64,000 nucleotides of DNA from an uncultured bacterium (GTDB lineage Bacteria > Vulcanimicrobiota > Xenobia > Xenobiales > Xenobiaceae): contig CAKTUZ010000010.1 of assembly GCA_934621605.1 (NCBI GenBank), forward strand, positions 14,580 to 78,579. Reading direction: 5' to 3'. Each line of letters opens with the position of its first letter. Positions within the stretch are counted from its first letter, which is position 1. This document shows positions 18,001 to 24,000 of this stretch, piece by piece. The position numbers are program-made.

Positions 18001-21000
18001 TTTTGGTCCCTATACTCCCCTTGTATGTAGCTGCCAATTTCTGTGCGATATCCTATGAGGGAAACATTTCCCGGTTTGGCATATTACTGCCAGTGATCTT
18101 AATTGTCATAATTTGCCACTATGTATGGCTTTTATTACTCTATGGATTAGCGACTATCTACTCAAGAAAAAACAGTTGGCAAGTGCTCAAATTCTACTTG
18201 CCTGCCTATCTCACGGCCTTAGGAACCATGTCTTCTGCTGCCACGTTGGGAGTATCTCTGGAATGCGTACGCAAAAGTCCTATACTGGACAAAAAAATCT
18301 CGGACTTTTCTATTCCCCTGTTCGCCAACATACATCTTTGTGGTTCCGTACTGACTGAGGTATTCTTTGTGTGCGTCGTATCCCAATTGCTTTACGGCCA
18401 GTTACCAACACTTTCCACCTTCATCTTATTCATATTGCTTCTGGGAGTATTTGCAGTAGGTGCCCCAGGAGTTCCCGGAGGAACCGTATTGGCATCATTG
18501 GGCATTGTCATTTCCGTATTGGGATTCAATGATGCAGGTACAGCCATGCTTATAGCAATTTTTGCTTTACAAGATAGCTTCGGCACGGCTTGCAACATAA
18601 CCGGCGATGGAGCTTTAGCATTAATCACTGATACGTTTATGAAACGGCATGGTGAGACAGACAGCGATATACCCCCCTGTAACTGTCCAGATTAGCAAAG
18701 TTATGTCTCAATCCAAACGCTCTTAGTTTTGAGAGCCATCAACCTTGTTCTTGGCTATCCCGAGGCAGAATCCCATATAGAAATAGAGTCTGAGTAAGCA
18801 AAAGATATACCTACTCAAACTCTATTTTTATTGATCCGCTTCCCAAATTTTCTGTTTGCCCTTGTTACTTGCCTACCAATCTGCCAAATCTTGGGCATAA
18901 TCTGTTTTTTCTTCCCTATCGTTTTCTAAAGAAAAAACCAATTTGTCTAGACGTTCCAGCATAATCTTCAATGAATCCGCTTGTAAAGCACTGACAAAAA
19001 CCGCATCTGTCCAAACTAAACGTACATTATCCAAAATTTCCGGAGCAGTTTTATCTATTTTATTAAAAACGACCAACTGAGGAATATCGTCCAAGGCCAA
19101 CTCCTCTAAAATTTGCTGCACAGCCATAATTTGATTGGCAAATTCAGGATTAGAAAGATCGACTACGTGGAGCAAAATATCGGCATCTCTAAGTTCTTCC
19201 AAAGTAGCGCGAAATGCCTTAGCCAAGTCTTCCGGTAAATCCTGAATAAATCCAACAGTATCAATTAAAACGGTTTTACGCCCCGAAGGAAGACGCAACT
19301 TTCTAGAAGTAGGGTCTAAAGTGGCAAAAAGGCGATTTTCAACCAAAATTTTTGCACCAGTCAAAGTGCGCAAAATCGTGGACTTCCCTGCATTGGTATA
19401 GCCTACCAAGTTTATAATAGGCGTGCCTGATTGCTGACGGTTAGCCCTGCGACGACGACGCTGGCTAGACAATTGGTCAAGATCTCGTTCCAATTTGGCA
19501 ATACGATCCTTAACTCGACGGCGTAAAACCTCTATTTTAGTTTCACCAGGTCCCTTAGCACCGATACCACCGGTAATGCGCGACATAAAGTCATCCTTAA
19601 GTACCAAACGAGGCAAGCTATATTTCATTTGAGCCAATTCAACCTGCAATTTACCATCTTTACTGCTAGCTCGGCGAGCAAATATATCTAAAATCAATTG
19701 AGTGCGATCTATTACTTCCAGCTCGCATAATTCGGAAATAGCCCGCATTTGTGAACCGCTAAGCTCACCTTCAAAAACAATCAAGTCGGCGCCCTTTTGC
19801 ATAGCGGTAATCATAATATCGGTCAACTTACCACTGCCGACTACGAATTTCGCATCTAAACGTGGACGTTTCTGCGTAACAACATCCACAACTTCTATAT
19901 CGGCCGAAGCGGCTAGTTCAGTCAATTCAGTCATAGAGCGCTGCAGATCGTCAAGTTTGTTAGTAGTTACGCCCACTAAAATAGCTCGACGCATCTTTCT
20001 CCCAGTAGAGTGCGAATCTATTTTTCGAGCATACTCTTGCTCTAATGCATTTATTAAACCGTAAAAATCCAACTTAAACAGATCTAAAGGAACCGGTTCT
20101 TCCACATGCCACGGTTCCTTATCACTGGGCTGTAGCCACGCAGCATAAATATTGCCTGGTAAACCATTGGGTAAAGCTTCCAAAGCGGCCACAGCATCAA
20201 ATCGCAACAAAGCCAAATCTGTTAAGTCATCCTGACTTAGAGGTTCGTCATTCAAGTGGGTATGAATCCAACGTACACCGCGAAAACGAGATTTACCGAC
20301 ACGAAAACGCCCCAATTCGGAAATCATAATTGACTTAGAGTCACCCACAAAAACTTGCAAAACATTACCTTTGCGATCTATTAAAATACCAACTTGCCTA
20401 CCTATTTCCAGAGAGATCTCGGTAAGATAACGTCCTAGTTCCCAACTTATTAAGCTTTCTCTATCCACTCTTTTTTGGAACAAACGCAATAAAGTTTTTT
20501 TCTGATTAGGTTTTAATCCGACAATATTGCCTTTAATTTCAGCCATATCCGTCTTCCCGTATTTAATTGAAAATTCTCGTTTCAAGCATTACTTGTATTG
20601 CTTGCCGCTTTAGACAAAGTCGAAAATCGCCCCTGCCTCTTCGATCACAAATGCAGCTAAGCAGGGTGTTTTTTTCAGGTGTTGAAGCTACTTTAACGAA
20701 GTATGTGGTTTCGCCTTATCTGACCTGCGTTCCGGTACAAACTGGCCAAAAGACTAGCGAAGCTGAAGTACACTGCATTTTTCTTAATGTGAGAGGAAAA
20801 CTTTAATGGCTTGGAGTTCTGGTCTGCAGCTTAGAGTAGTTGAAGGCAATGACGAAGGTAGGGTTGTCCTGCTCAACTCGCCGGAAATAACCTTGGGACG
20901 AGCGGTCGAAACTAGTGAAAGTTCCCCCGGCTGGGTTCTCTTTTCCGAACCTACCGTGTCCAGAATTCATGCCTTGCTGCAATGGGATGACGAAAGACAG

Positions 21001-24000
21001 TGTTATGTCTTACAGCACCGCTCTCGCACCAATCCTACCTTAGTTCGTGATATGCCCGTCGACGGCTATCCGCTTCATCTTAACGAAAAAGTAAACTTAG
21101 GCCTATTGGGCTTTATCCTAGAACCGGCTGAAACACGTACCGGAAAACTAGGCGATGCTGTAAAAACTCCCCAAAGTCAGGGTGTATCTCCAGGAGTCTT
21201 TGACGCTCTAAACGATTACGCTTCCAAGAGCAACAACCGCCAAGACAGAGAAAATATGGTCGGTATGGCCGGTTTGATGGATGCCGGTATGCAAGATGAC
21301 AGCAAATTTGTCATGACCGTCATTCAAGGCCCCGATAAAGGAACTAATTATCCTCTCCGTGAGCCGGTCTTAGTTATAGGTCGTTTACAGGGGCCAGCCG
21401 ATCCTCGCACCAGCGCCGGCGTATTGCTGCACGATACCTCTGTGCCCAGCGAACAGGCACTTTTAGTATGGCAAGACAGAGCTGCCACCTACGGGATCTT
21501 GCAATCAGATAGTAGTAGCCAAGCTACGCGTATTAGACGCATGTCCAATGGTATGCCTCGTGAAATTATCGTGCGTAGCGATATTCCCACGGTGCTTAAT
21601 GAGCGCGACGTAATTATGATTGGCCGCACAGCTATGGTACTTTCCAGTACCGAAAAGCAGAACGCGGGTCATGACTTGGGGCAAACGAGTATGCATGTCC
21701 CCAATCAGCAACTACAACAGCCTTTTAATGAATTTGAGACAGACGACAATCAGCCCCACCGCTCTCCTTTGCGCAGCTGGAGAGGCAACAGCGCTCCTCA
21801 GCAGTCTTACTCTGAGTCGGCCAATCAGTATCAACAACAACCTCAGCAAGCTTATCAACCACAACGGGAATATGGCAATTACCCTATAAATCGAGAGGCT
21901 CCCAATTACGGTGATTACCAGCCTCAGCCCCAGCAACGCCGCGAAGCTTATCCTCCTCAACCGAATAACTATCCCGGCCAGCCCGCTTATCCGCCCTCTG
22001 AGCCTATTCCCTACGGAGAGCAACCGCCTTACGGTCAGGATCGAGCCCCCGGATATGCTCCTCAACAGGTTGGTGTTTCTTACCCAGCAGGTGCTCCTCG
22101 TCCAACAGGCGATCCTAACCAGGCCAATGTTCCTCGTCCGGCAGGCGCTCCTCGTCCAGCCGGTGCCCCGCATCCGGCAGGCGCTCCTCGTCCAGCCGGC
22201 GCCCCGCGTCCAGCAGGCGCTCCTCGTCCGACAGGCGCCCCACGTCCAGCAGGCGCCCCACGTCCGGCAGGCGCCCCACGTCCGGCAGGTGCTCCTCGTC
22301 CGGCAGGCGCCCCACGTCCGGCAGGCGCCCCACGTCCGGCAGGCGCCCCACGTCCGGCAGGCGCCCCTCGTCCAGCAGGCGCCCCACGTCCGGCAGGCGC
22401 CCCTCGTCCGGCGGGTGCTCCTCGTCCAGCGGGTGCTCCTCGTCCAGCGGGTGCTCCTCGTCCAGCAGGCAATCCTCGTCCGACGCTCCCTCCGGATTCC
22501 CAAGATAATAATAATTACCAATAGCCACTAACTGCCGACCGAATTACGCCTTGCAAGCACGATGGAATAAAACGGTCGGCTTCAATAGTTTTTTTTATTT
22601 CATATAGGTACAGCAGCGGTGGAAAATCAGAATAGCCCTCAGCAACAAGCAGCCGATCTTCGCATGATGTTGGATAACGAGCCTCCTAAGCAGCGTTCTT
22701 CGCGTCGCAACTCCAGAGGGACAACCCTAAGCGACATAGACACTATGTCTTACGATGAGTTGGTGGCTTATATATCTGATTCCAATTCAGATTTTGCTGA
22801 CGGCAATACAGAATTTGATGATCAGGGCAGCCTTTACGCACACGGTAAAGACAATTCCAGCGTATCTCCTCCGCCGAATGCTTTACCTGCTTTTGGCGAG
22901 GCTTCCACATCCAATAGTCTAGCCGACGAAATTCGCGAGGAAGAAGAGCGGGCGAAACGAGCCGTTCCTTACTCATTTGCCTCTTTAGGCAAAAAGCAAC
23001 CTGCAAACGACTTAAAAATCGATACTACTGCCCCCTTCTCGGAATCGACTCCGAATCGCTCGGCCCTCGCCGATTCCGTAGCGGCAGATTCACATCGCGC
23101 AGCCGATTCCGCTATGCGAACAACTACTCCGGACCCAGACGAATATATAAATTATCCTCAGCAAGAAGCCTTCCAAGATGGAGAGCTCAGCTCCAACCAG
23201 TTTTCCAAAGAAAAACTAACTGACGAAGAGCATTTTTCTGCTTCTTTTGACCAAACAGAATTCGATGCCGAAGGCTATGACACCGAAGGCTACGATGCTG
23301 AAGGTTTTGATCGCGACGGTTTTGATCGCGAGGGCTTCGACAGAAATAATTACGATCGCGAAGGTTACGACTGGGAGGGTTACGATTGGGAAGGCTTCAA
23401 CCGTGACGGCTTTGATCGTGATGGTTTCGACAGAGATAATTACGATCGCGAAGGTTACGACTGGGAGGGTTACAATTGGGAAGGTTTCGACCGTGACGGC
23501 TTTGATCGTGATGGTTTCGACAGAGATAATTACGATCGCGAAGGTTATGACTGGGAAGGCTATAATCAGTATGGCTTAGATCGCCAGGGCTTTGATCGCA
23601 ACGGTTTTGATTCAGAAGGATACGACCGCGAAGGCTTTAACAACGACGGTTTCGATCGTGAAGGTTTCGACCGTGACGGTTTCGATCAATACAATTATGA
23701 CCGCAACGGTTACGATTGGGAGGGTTACGATTACGAAGGCTACGATTATGGCGGCTTTGATCGAGATGGTTACGACAAAGAAGGATATACTCGCCAGGAT
23801 TGGGAGGCTGCAGGCTACAAATTTGGGCCACGCGGCGAGTTTATTTTGCCAGAAACAGAACAGCAAAATACGGAAGCCGAAAACTCTGCTCAACAGAATT
23901 TCACAAGTGAGGAAAGAGCTCAGACAGAAGAGCAATCAGAGCCTATCGAATCCAAGGTTAAAGATAATTTAAACGGAACCGATCAAAATGAAGGCGATAA

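What the first reader, a model, noticed from the sequence alone, without database searches (positions are those of the whole stretch)
20806..22524. Double-FHA protein with a roughly 22-copy PAGAPR tandem-repeat tail
Two FHA domains at the N-terminus are followed by a Pro/Gln/Tyr-rich low-complexity region and a near-perfect hexapeptide array, (PAGAPR)n. The array is encoded by 18-nt DNA repeats with mostly synonymous variation. High DNA-level identity implies recent expansion or ongoing concerted evolution. Repeat number probably varies between strains by slipped-strand mispairing or recombination. Pro-Arg-rich tails like this can act as polyproline-II spacers or polyanion-binding elements.
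Basis: seen in the sequence. Interest (0 to 1): 0.6.

Follow-up and report, generated by a model that had tools for sequence, protein, structure and literature searches.

The report
Split four-FHA scaffold with PAGAPR tail
This is a real gene for a phosphothreonine-reader (FHA) protein with a roughly 20-copy PAGAPR tail. It is the front half of a four-FHA protein that an uncultured gut bacterial lineage split into two genes, leaving a positively charged repeat tail on one half and a strongly negative repeat region on the other.

Summary
ORF 20806..22524 (+) encodes 572 aa:
- FHA1, with the canonical pThr-binding residues
- FHA2, with an FHA fold by AlphaFold/Foldseek but lacking the Ser/His/Asn triad
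- a Q/P/Y-rich disordered stretch
- 22 in-register hexapeptide units (17 exact PAGAPR) at 22084-22479

Most differences between units are synonymous (37 nt synonymous, 5 nt in non-synonymous codons).

The organism is a gut-associated member of Vulcanimicrobiota (Eremiobacterota), class Ca. Xenobia, close to Ca. Bruticola.

- This gene and the next one (22619..25258) are the two halves of a single FHA1-FHA2-IDR-FHA3-FHA4 protein. Every relative at or below 68% identity whose full length could be read encodes it as one ORF; relatives at or above 78% are split.
- The locus is syntenic with hflX and a nagZ-like gene across the phylum.
- The PAGAPR peptide is invariant across sister species although the codons differ (CGT versus AGG/AGA). 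Copy number ranges from about 7 to 20. Two 99.7%-identical genomes differ by exactly 6 units.
- The tail carries +19 net charge and the partner protein −113.

Inferred mechanism: a multivalent phospho-dependent scaffold whose halves re-associate through their oppositely charged, aromatic-rich repeats. This is a new variant of a known kind and is moderately interesting.

The parts
20806..22524 (+). Gene 1: N-terminal half of the split four-FHA protein (572 aa): FHA1, linker, FHA2, Q/P/Y-rich IDR, PAGAPR array, short acidic C-terminus
20806..21135 (+). FHA1 (aa 1-110). Canonical pThr-binding set G31-R32, S52-R53, H55, T75-N76, invariant in the family alignment
   Evidence: Pfam FHA E 2e-7; invariant columns; pLDDT about 90
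21136..21300 (+). Disordered inter-FHA linker (aa 111-165) with conserved GKLGDAV and a short predicted helix (aa 133-142)
   Evidence: pLDDT below 50; alignment
21301..21654 (+). FHA2 (aa 166-283). FHA fold with a degenerate pocket: keeps G192-R193; Ser to Pro214, His to Gln217, Asn to Gln239
   Evidence: AF2 pLDDT 88 with FHA-only Foldseek hits; hhalign against FHA1
21655..22083 (+). Q/P/Y-rich low-complexity IDR (aa 284-426)
   Evidence: composition
21757..21783 (+). Conserved short linear motif HRSPLRSWR inside the otherwise hypervariable IDR (RSP[LF]R in fused relatives)
22084..22479 (+). Hexapeptide array: 22 units of 18 nt (17 exact PAGAPR), net charge +19, P 33%, A 30%, G 16%, R 15%
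22480..22524 (+). Short C-terminal end (PTLPPDSQDNNNYQ) and stop codon. The ...NNYR / ...GNYQ ending is conserved in sister species, so the stop is real
22534..22596 (+). Conserved intergenic hairpin (GCCGACCG...CGGTCGGC, −21 kcal/mol, z −3) followed by T8. Probably a terminator or attenuator between the two halves
   Evidence: 3 of 9 pairs with compensatory changes
22619..25258 (+). Gene 2: C-terminal half of the split protein. It has a conserved novel N-terminus, acidic/aromatic repeat IDR, FHA3 (degenerate) and FHA4 (canonical). Net charge −113. Its length is a minimum estimate because two scaffold gaps were removed inside it
23273..23797 (+). 35 in-register G[F/Y]D-x-x pentapeptide units (GFDRD, GYDRE, GYDWE) in gene 2
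24605..25255 (+). FHA3 (TIGSPGER...VANDQA, degenerate) and FHA4 (IGRDR...ISRHH...DTNPT, canonical). 44-61% identical to the C-termini of the fused one-gene relatives
18873..20585 (-). hflX (GTPase HflX with a roughly 190-aa N-terminal extension). Syntenic neighbour throughout the phylum
25286..26815 (+). GH3 beta-N-acetylhexosaminidase (NagZ-like). Syntenic downstream neighbour throughout the phylum

Best explanation
Gene 20806..22524 encodes the N-terminal half of a lineage-specific, cytoplasmic four-FHA scaffold protein of Vulcanimicrobiota/Eremiobacterota. The ancestral and still widespread form is one polypeptide: FHA1 (canonical pThr reader), FHA2 (degenerate), a disordered low-complexity linker, FHA3 (degenerate), FHA4 (canonical). 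It is encoded between hflX and a nagZ-like gene.

In the gut-associated Xenobia/Bruticola-like clade the gene was split inside the linker. Each half then expanded its part of the linker into tandem peptide repeats of opposite character:
- a cationic Pro/Ala/Gly/Arg array, (PAGAPR)n, at the end of half 1
- a very acidic, aromatic-rich G[F/Y]D-x-x array at the start of half 2

Proposed mechanism (inferred, not shown):
- The two canonical FHA domains dock onto pThr sites made by a Ser/Thr kinase encoded elsewhere.
- The cationic, probably polyproline-II-like PAGAPR tail binds the polyanionic aromatic repeats of half 2 through charge and Arg-aromatic contacts. This rebuilds a bivalent or multivalent assembly, possibly a condensate, comparable to the FHA-IDR systems Rv1747 and T6SS Fha.
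- Repeat number changes by slippage or unequal recombination, while selection keeps the peptide unit constant.
For: Shown:
- Domain architecture and fold. FHA1 has invariant GR, SR-x-H and TN. FHA2 has lost Ser, His and Asn.
- No segment is hydrophobic enough for a TM helix or signal peptide (maximum 19-residue Kyte-Doolittle window 0.77).
- One-ORF four-FHA relatives: L012, L014, L016, L017, P0010, P0011, P0014-P0017, P0019, P0020 and P0024.
- Gene 2 aa 640-879 is 44-61% identical to their C-termini (E 1e-62 to 1e-92).
- The boundary is clean where the architecture could be read. Relatives at or above 78% identity to FHA1-2 are split. Those at or below 68% whose full length could be read are fused. 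L010 at 76% runs off its contig.
- The split is real. The stop context and C-terminus are conserved, the intergenic hairpin and the start context ATAGGTA..CGGTG are conserved, and the frame offset between the genes varies (0, 1 or 2) among species.
- hflX, FHA gene(s) and nagZ are syntenic from 35% to 95% identity.
- The PAGAPR peptide is invariant while codons differ between species. Copy number varies, including a 6-unit difference between genomes that are 99.7% identical.
- Charge segregation: array +19, gene 2 −113. The same pattern holds in L006 (+2 for gene 1 overall, −114 for gene 2) and L009 (+19, −136). It is much weaker in fused relatives.

From the literature:
- FHA plus IDR modules phase-separate in a phospho-dependent way in Rv1747 (Heinkel et al. 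2019, as reviewed in PMC9312465).
- T6SS Fha also forms condensates (bioRxiv 10.1101/2023.12.21.572528).
Against: - No kinase, phosphatase or identifiable pThr target lies in the window or near the homologues examined.
- The interaction between the two halves is inferred only from charge, composition and shared ancestry. No structural or co-variation test was possible.
- More distant orthologues carry quite different repeats in the same position (QQGGQY in L010, GGYPQQ in L012, PAGPPPPR-type in L009). The family's core function therefore does not need PAGAPR specifically.
- The conserved terminator-like hairpin between the genes may mean the halves are expressed at different levels rather than stoichiometrically.
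- The biological process served (ribosome/HflX, peptidoglycan recycling/NagZ, or neither) is unknown.
Confidence: 0.5

Rival explanations
1. The PAGAPR array is only a flexible or extended spacer whose length and composition matter, not its sequence. It has no specific binding partner, and repeat-number changes are nearly neutral by-products of slippage.
For: Orthologous tails and linkers in other lineages have unrelated repeats (QQGGQY, GGYPQQ, PAGPPPPR, a 13-mer PQGAPRPAGPPRP) or are short and non-repetitive. Copy number is variable, from about 7 to 20.
Against: Within the clade the hexapeptide is invariant across species despite saturating synonymous change, including CGT versus AGG/AGA Arg codons. 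Within the window, 37 nt differences are synonymous against 5 nt in non-synonymous codons. Every split-clade species whose tail end could be read combines a cationic P/R-rich tail with an acidic aromatic partner IDR.
Confidence: 0.25
2. The cationic Pro/Arg tail binds a non-protein polyanion such as rRNA/ribosomes, DNA or polyphosphate. It would tether the FHA module to ribosomes in a functional unit with the neighbouring ribosome-splitting GTPase HflX.
For: hflX lies immediately upstream and co-directional in most of the phylum, and adjacent but inverted here. The array has net charge +19.
Against: Fused relatives with near-neutral, short linkers keep the same synteny, so synteny does not depend on a cationic tail. 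One Arg per six residues is a low charge density for nucleic-acid binding. hflX was inverted in exactly the clade that has the array.
Confidence: 0.12
3. The array, or its length, is an assembly artefact of short-read metagenome assembly (collapsed or expanded repeat).
For: Many assemblies of relatives break exactly in this array: contig ends in L003, L005 and L020, and N-gaps in L002 and L008. The same scaffold has two gaps in the repeats of the next gene.
Against: The array is contiguous in this scaffold. Its longest exact internal repeat is 53 nt. Complete arrays with the same unit and a conserved C-terminus occur in independent assemblies (L004, L006, L007, L019, L021).
Confidence: 0.05
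4. It is a component of a secretion machine: a T3SS SctD/YscD-like or a T6SS Fha/TagH-like protein.
For: The best Pfam hit is Yop-YscD_cpl. YscD and PscD appear among the Foldseek hits.
Against: There is no TM segment or periplasmic domain. TIGR02500 SctD scores 16.7 bits on gene 2 against a cut-off of 86. No T3SS or T6SS genes appear among the window ORFs that have Pfam hits. The YscD cytoplasmic domain is itself simply an FHA fold.
Confidence: 0.03

Closest known systems
Mycobacterium tuberculosis Rv1747 regulatory module (FHA1, disordered linker, FHA2)
   Same: Both have tandem FHA domains joined by, or attached to, an intrinsically disordered region. Both offer multivalency that can drive phospho-dependent self-assembly or phase separation (PMC9312465, PMC8339232).
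   Different: Rv1747 is fused to an ABC transporter and sits in an operon with its kinase PknF. Its linker carries mapped pThr sites. Here there is no transporter and no linked kinase. There are four FHA folds, two of them degenerate. The linker is long, repetitive and split between two genes.
T6SS Fha / TagH (FHA plus IDR scaffold)
   Same: Both have an N-terminal FHA domain followed by a long Pro-rich IDR. The IDR and FHA are reported to drive condensates that recruit clients (bioRxiv 10.1101/2023.12.21.572528).
   Different: No T6SS genes are nearby. Tandem rather than single FHA. The tail is a near-perfect hexapeptide array. The organism belongs to the Bacillati-lineage phylum Vulcanimicrobiota.
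Actinobacterial FhaA (Rv0020c) and FhaB/FipA
   Same: FHA domain plus a long disordered region. Weak NCBIfam similarity of FHA1 to FhaB_Rv0019c (27.5 bits). FhaA is among the Foldseek hits.
   Different: The score is far below the cut-off (125). FhaA has an N-terminal DUF3662-type domain and one C-terminal FHA. FhaB has a TM segment. Their genomic context (pstP-rodA-pbpA-pknAB) is absent at this locus, although a separate FHA-RodA-PBP cluster lies at 9440-13017.
Arg-containing proline-rich repeat IDRs (for example poly-PR/GR dipeptide repeats, TonB-type Pro-rich spacers)
   Same: Cationic, Pro-rich and predicted to be extended. Known from general biophysics to bind acidic or aromatic IDRs and polyanions.
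   Different: Lower charge density (one Arg per six residues), a different unit, a bacterial cytoplasmic context. This comparison rests on composition only.

Membership tests
FHA domain (PF00498), domain 1 (aa 1-110) | HMM match above the gathering score | tested here: met
   31.7 bits against cut-off 20.7, E 2e-7
FHA domain (PF00498), domain 1 (aa 1-110) | Conserved pThr-pocket residues Gly-Arg, Ser-x-x-His, Asn (Rad53 FHA1 G69/R70/S85/H88/N107 pattern; established knowledge) | tested here: met
   G31-R32, S52-x-x-H55 and T75-N76 are invariant in the family alignments
FHA domain (PF00498), domain 1 (aa 1-110) | Actual phosphothreonine-peptide binding | not testable with these tools
   Needs ITC or peptide arrays
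FHA domain, domain 2 (aa 166-283) | 11-strand beta-sandwich FHA fold | tested here: met
   AF2 pLDDT 88, pTM 0.80. The top 50 Foldseek PDB hits are all FHA domains, with target-normalised TM up to 0.83. hhalign against FHA1 gives probability 98%
FHA domain, domain 2 (aa 166-283) | Conserved pThr-pocket residues | tested here: not met
   Only G192-R193 is kept. Ser is replaced by Pro214, His by Gln217 and Asn by Gln239. The Pfam FHA model does not match it; only Yop-YscD_cpl does
T3SS SctD/YscD | Equivalog HMM, TM helix and periplasmic ring-building domains, T3SS gene cluster | tested here: not met
   TIGR02500 does not match gene 1 and scores 16.7 on gene 2 against cut-off 86. Maximum KD19 hydropathy 0.77. 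No T3SS genes in the window
FhaB/FipA (NF049868) and OdhI/GarA (NF041660) | Equivalog HMM above cut-off | tested here: not met
   27.5 against 125 for FhaB/FipA; OdhI 32.6 against 200, on gene 2 only
Collagen-like triple-helix repeat | Gly at every third residue (G-X-Y) | tested here: not met
   In PAGAPR, Gly recurs every sixth residue
Vulcanimicrobiota four-FHA protein (unnamed family defined here) | N-terminal MAWSSGLQLRV... FHA1-FHA2 module orthologous to that of the one-ORF four-FHA proteins | tested here: met
   32-68% identity over aa 1-285 to fused proteins P0010-P0024. 101 clusters at E below 1e-30
Vulcanimicrobiota four-FHA protein (unnamed family defined here) | C-terminal FHA3-FHA4 module present, here on the adjacent gene | tested here: met
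   Gene 2 aa 640-879 is 44-61% identical to the fused C-termini
Vulcanimicrobiota four-FHA protein (unnamed family defined here) | Conserved position between hflX and a nagZ-like GH3 gene | tested here: met
   tblastn synteny in the 14 loci L002-L010 and L012-L017
Phase-separating FHA-IDR scaffold (Rv1747 or Fha type), functional analogy | Phospho-dependent condensate formation | not testable with these tools
   Only composition and charge patterning are available

The most novel reading that the evidence does not exclude
The gene fission created a two-component 'split scaffold'. The covalent linker of an ancestral four-FHA protein was replaced by a non-covalent, tunable interaction between a cationic (PAGAPR)n array and an anionic aromatic (G[F/Y]Dxx)n array. 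This would be a natural complex-coacervate pair in a bacterium. Its valency would be set by rapidly evolving repeat numbers and its assembly gated by Ser/Thr phosphorylation through the two canonical FHA domains. It may organise ribosome-rescue (HflX) or cell-wall-recycling (NagZ) functions.
Probability: 0.2. Interest if true: 0.7.

Novelty: new variant of a known kind. Interest (0 to 1): 0.42.

Why it matters
FHA proteins with disordered regions are emerging as phospho-regulated organisers in bacteria (Rv1747, T6SS Fha).

This locus offers a natural evolutionary series within one phylum:
- a short neutral linker
- a long low-complexity linker
- a gene split, with oppositely charged tandem-repeat arrays whose peptide units are under strong purifying selection while copy number changes

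This makes testable how linker sequence, charge patterning and valency are selected in a bacterial scaffold. It also shows that a disordered repeat can be strongly constrained at the peptide level.

It also gives a first functional handle, the conserved hflX, 4xFHA, nagZ cluster, in a nearly uncultured, gut-associated lineage (Ca. Xenobia).

If the mechanism is wrong, the result is still a well-documented but ordinary case: an FHA protein with a slippage-prone repeat tail.

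Tried and rejected
1. PDB sequence search with domain 2 alone gave only chance-level hits (E at least 0.16). The fold had to be established by AF2 and Foldseek.
2. The simple terminator/promoter scan found nothing between the genes, because the hairpin loop exceeds the scanner's limit. RNA folding and cross-species comparison were used instead.
3. A protein search with the tail alone returned two unrelated low-complexity hits (P0156; P0157, a DUF3566 protein) and missed the known orthologues. It says nothing about how widespread PAGAPR arrays are.
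4. Pfam scans of all large window ORFs found no Pkinase, PP2C, T3SS or T6SS components. Neighbours of the paralogous 2xFHA gene (L018) and of the fused gene in L014 were also uninformative.
5. Literature searches found no description of this family or of any FHA-HflX link.
6. Translational read-through or frameshifting between the two ORFs is rejected, because the frame offset differs among species (0, 1 or 2).
7. ORFs in other frames or on the other strand across the array (21712..22521 minus strand, 21911..22531, 22080..22472 minus strand, 22115..22528 minus strand) are rejected as stop-free artefacts of the repeat. Variation falls mostly on third codon positions of the +1 frame, which is continuous with the FHA domains.
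8. A surface or cell-wall-spanning Pro-rich protein is rejected: there is no signal peptide or TM segment.

Full report
**1. Observation**

The ORF 20806..22524 (+) exists. It is 572 aa long, starts at ATG and has AGAGGA 8 nt upstream.

Pfam finds FHA (PF00498, aa 28-99, 31.7 bits against a cut-off of 20.7). It also finds the FHA-like Yop-YscD_cpl model in two stretches. AlphaFold2 on a 7-sequence alignment gives two confident beta-sandwich domains, aa 1-110 and 166-283. They are separated by a disordered linker, aa 111-165.

The second domain does not match the Pfam FHA model, so I modelled it alone. The model has pLDDT 88 and pTM 0.80. All 50 listed Foldseek PDB matches are FHA domains: OdhI, GarA, FhaA, DgcB, MDC1 and YscD. 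The target-normalised TM-score reaches 0.83. A profile-profile comparison of FHA1 with FHA2 gives probability 98% and E 2.8e-13. 'Two FHA domains' is therefore correct at fold level.

FHA1 carries the canonical pocket (G31-R32, S52-R53-x-H55, T75-N76). These residues are invariant in the family. FHA2 keeps only Gly-Arg. Its Ser is replaced by Pro214, its His by Gln217 and its Asn by Gln239. It is most likely not a pThr reader.

**2. The tail**

Residues 286-426 are Q 18%, P 17% and Y 10%. They contain one conserved short motif, HRSPLRSWR at 21757-21783. This motif recurs as RSP[LF]R in nearly all relatives, although the surrounding sequence is hypervariable.

From nt 22084 the sequence reads in register as 22 hexapeptides:
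- 17 exact PAGAPR
- PAGAPH, PTGAPR and PAGNPR
- two degenerate units near the start

The array ends at 22479. TRF reports period 18, 19.5 copies, 86% matches and no indels.

Against the unit consensus, 37 nt differences are synonymous and 5 nt lie in non-synonymous codons. Variation falls mostly on third codon positions of this frame. That also identifies the real reading frame among the several stop-free ORFs the repeat generates.

The array has net charge +19. Its composition is P 33%, A 30%, G 16% and R 15%. It is not collagen-like, because Gly recurs every sixth residue. Neither this protein nor its neighbour has a segment hydrophobic enough for a TM helix or signal peptide, so both are cytoplasmic.

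**3. Source and assembly**

The window is ENA scaffold MERR22-1_SAMEA4765934 scaffold_584.

Comparison with that record shows that two 100-N scaffold gaps were removed from the window. The junctions are at 23544|23545 and about 24417|24418. Both lie in the repeats of the downstream gene, not in the PAGAPR array.

The PAGAPR array is contiguous in the scaffold. Its longest exact internal repeat is 53 nt.

The nearest genomes are MAGs from several sources:
- human gut, including Hadza samples
- goat rumen and other rumen samples
- MAGs labelled UBP9, 'Riflebacteria', Eremiobacteraeota, Vulcanimicrobiota or Ca. Bruticola

NCBI taxonomy places Ca. Bruticola in Vulcanimicrobiota, class Ca. Xenobia.

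**4. The array in relatives**

| Locus | Status | In-register PAGAPR-type units |
|---|---|---|
| L019 | complete | 18 |
| L006 | complete | 17 |
| L007 | complete | 14, preceded by a 12-residue repeat |
| L004 | complete | 12 |
| L021 | complete | 6 |

These species are 86-95% identical to the window in the FHA region. The complete arrays all end in a conserved ...NNYR or ...GNYQ C-terminus.

Other assemblies break inside the array:
- L003, L005 and L020 end at a contig end.
- L002 and L008 have N-gaps.

So the array is hard to assemble, but it is real.

The peptide unit is invariant across these species while the codons differ. The dominant unit is CCG GCA GGC GCC CCA CGT here, CCA GCT GGC GCT CCT CGT in L004 and CCC GCA GGA GCA CCT AGG in L007. 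Arg is encoded by CGT in some species and AGG/AGA in others. Synonymous sites in FHA1 are also substantially diverged: only 60-78% of codons for conserved residues are identical.

This pattern means purifying selection on the peptide, overlaid on lineage-specific array turnover. Short runs of identical adjacent units, such as three identical 18-mers at 22300-22353, point to that turnover.

L004 and L021 are 99.6-99.8% identical over about 6 kb of flanks. They differ by one clean 108-bp (6-unit) indel in the array. The sequence shared at the junction is under 20 nt, too short for a de Bruijn-graph collapse. This is the best available evidence for within-species copy-number polymorphism.

**5. 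What the gene really is**

More distant orthologues carry other repeats in the same position:
- PAGPPPPR-like 8-9-mers in L009
- a PQGAPRPAGPPRP 13-mer in L011
- QQGGQY in L010
- about 30 copies of GGYPQQ in L012

In L012, L014, L016 and L017 the ORF does not stop. It continues through the low-complexity region into two more FHA domains, giving 681-931 aa. The same holds for database representatives P0010, P0011, P0014-P0017, P0019, P0020 and P0024, which are 594-991 aa.

The window's downstream gene (22619..25258) ends in exactly this FHA3-FHA4 module. Its aa 640-879 are 44-61% identical to the C-termini of the fused proteins, with E from 1e-62 to 1e-92. FHA3 is degenerate (TIGSPGER...VANDQA). 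FHA4 is canonical (IGRDR...ISRHH...DTNPT).

Architecture tracks relatedness:
- Relatives at or above 78% identity to the window's FHA1-2 whose tail end could be read are split.
- Relatives at or below 68% whose full length could be read are fused.
- L010, at 76%, runs off its contig, so its state is unknown.

This fits a single fission.

The split is not a sequencing error or a recoding site, for three reasons:
- Gene 1's C-terminus is conserved.
- The 90-130-nt spacer keeps three features: a GC-rich hairpin (3 of 9 pairs with compensatory changes), a T-run and the start context ATAGGTA..CGGTG.
- The frame offset between the two ORFs is 0, 1 or 2, depending on the species.

Gene 2's N-terminal roughly 60 residues (VENQNSPQQQAADLR...GTTLSDIDTMSYDELVAYIS) are conserved within the split clade. 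They have no counterpart in fused proteins.

**6. Context**

hflX, the FHA gene or genes, and a nagZ-like GH3 gene are syntenic from 35% to 95% identity. hflX is co-directional and immediately upstream in L009-L017. It is inverted in the window and its closest relatives.

No Pkinase, PP2C, T3SS or T6SS gene was found among the window ORFs, or beside the homologues checked.

**7. Mechanism**

The shown elements are:
- a cytoplasmic protein with one competent and one degenerate FHA domain
- an IDR under peptide-level selection
- a partner protein that was once covalently attached

The split clade shows extreme charge segregation:
- Gene 1's terminal array is +19 here, with about +6 per 40 residues in the corresponding part of L006 and L009.
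- Gene 2 is −113 here, −114 in L006, −136 in L009 and −157 in L008.
- Much of gene 2's charge sits in 35 or more G[F/Y]D-x-x pentapeptides rich in Tyr, Phe and Trp.
- Fused relatives have much weaker charge patterning.

I infer that the Arg/Pro tail binds the acidic aromatic repeats through electrostatic and Arg-aromatic contacts. This would re-join the halves into a multivalent adaptor with two pThr-reading ends, possibly forming condensates. Precedents are the FHA-IDR-FHA module of Rv1747, reviewed in PMC9312465, and T6SS Fha in bioRxiv 10.1101/2023.12.21.572528.

My confidence in the architecture and the fission is high, about 0.9. My confidence in the pairing mechanism is about 0.3-0.4. 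The process regulated is unknown.

**8. Comparison and novelty**

This is an FHA-domain protein. FHA1 is a full member of the family. FHA2 is a member by fold only.

It is not SctD/YscD, FhaB/FipA or OdhI: the equivalog scores are far below their cut-offs, and there is no TM segment and no matching gene context.

No Pfam or NCBIfam model describes the four-FHA family, the PAGAPR repeat or the G[F/Y]Dxx repeat. Source annotations say only 'FHA domain-containing protein'. Literature searches found nothing on the family.

I rate it a new variant of a known kind (an FHA-IDR scaffold). The gene fission and the complementary repeat expansions are the unusual features.

Noticed in passing
window 23544|23545 and about 24417|24418 (inside gene 22619..25258): The window equals ENA scaffold_584 with two 100-N scaffold gaps deleted. 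Both junctions fall in repeat arrays of the downstream gene, so its 879-aa length and repeat counts are minimum estimates. ENA called only a 258-aa C-terminal fragment.
   Followed up: yes
window 23273-23797 and 24341-24502: Gene 2 holds about 35 in-register G[F/Y]D-x-x pentapeptides (GFDRD, GYDRE, GYDWE) and 3-4 copies of an 18-aa acidic repeat, QPYVEEYPHQDLTQQSEA. Net protein charge is −113. Relatives have the same pentapeptide repeats but different acidic long repeats.
   Followed up: partly
window 22534-22596: A conserved intergenic hairpin (GCCGACCG...CGGTCGGC) followed by T8, with compensatory substitutions in sister species. Likely a terminator or attenuator between the two halves of the split gene.
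   Followed up: partly
window 18873..20585 (-): HflX carries a roughly 190-aa N-terminal extension before the TIGR03156 core, and the extension is conserved across the phylum. hflX is co-directional with the FHA gene in most relatives but inverted in this clade.
   Followed up: partly
window 9440..15479 (-): A cluster of two PilT/PilB-type secretion ATPases, a 233-aa protein with a C-terminal FHA domain, a RodA/FtsW-family protein and a PBP transpeptidase. It recalls the actinobacterial fhaB-rodA-pbpA arrangement but lacks kinase and phosphatase genes.
   Followed up: no
L018 7992-8855 (same MAG as L014); P0006, P0007: Many genomes of the phylum also encode a roughly 285-aa paralogue consisting only of the FHA1-FHA2 module with no tail. 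In L018 it lies next to a peptidase U32 gene.
   Followed up: partly
window 26946..29287 (-): A CsgG-family lipoprotein (28343..29287) and two small ORFs without Pfam hits lie downstream of nagZ. The 163-aa ORF and CsgG are syntenic in L006-L008.
   Followed up: no
window 22619-22800 (gene 2 aa 1-60): Gene 2's N-terminus (…RRNSRGTTLSDIDTMSYDELVAYIS…) is highly conserved and specific to the split clade. It includes Thr residues in pT-x-x-D/L-like contexts and could be a docking peptide for an FHA domain. This is speculative.
   Followed up: no
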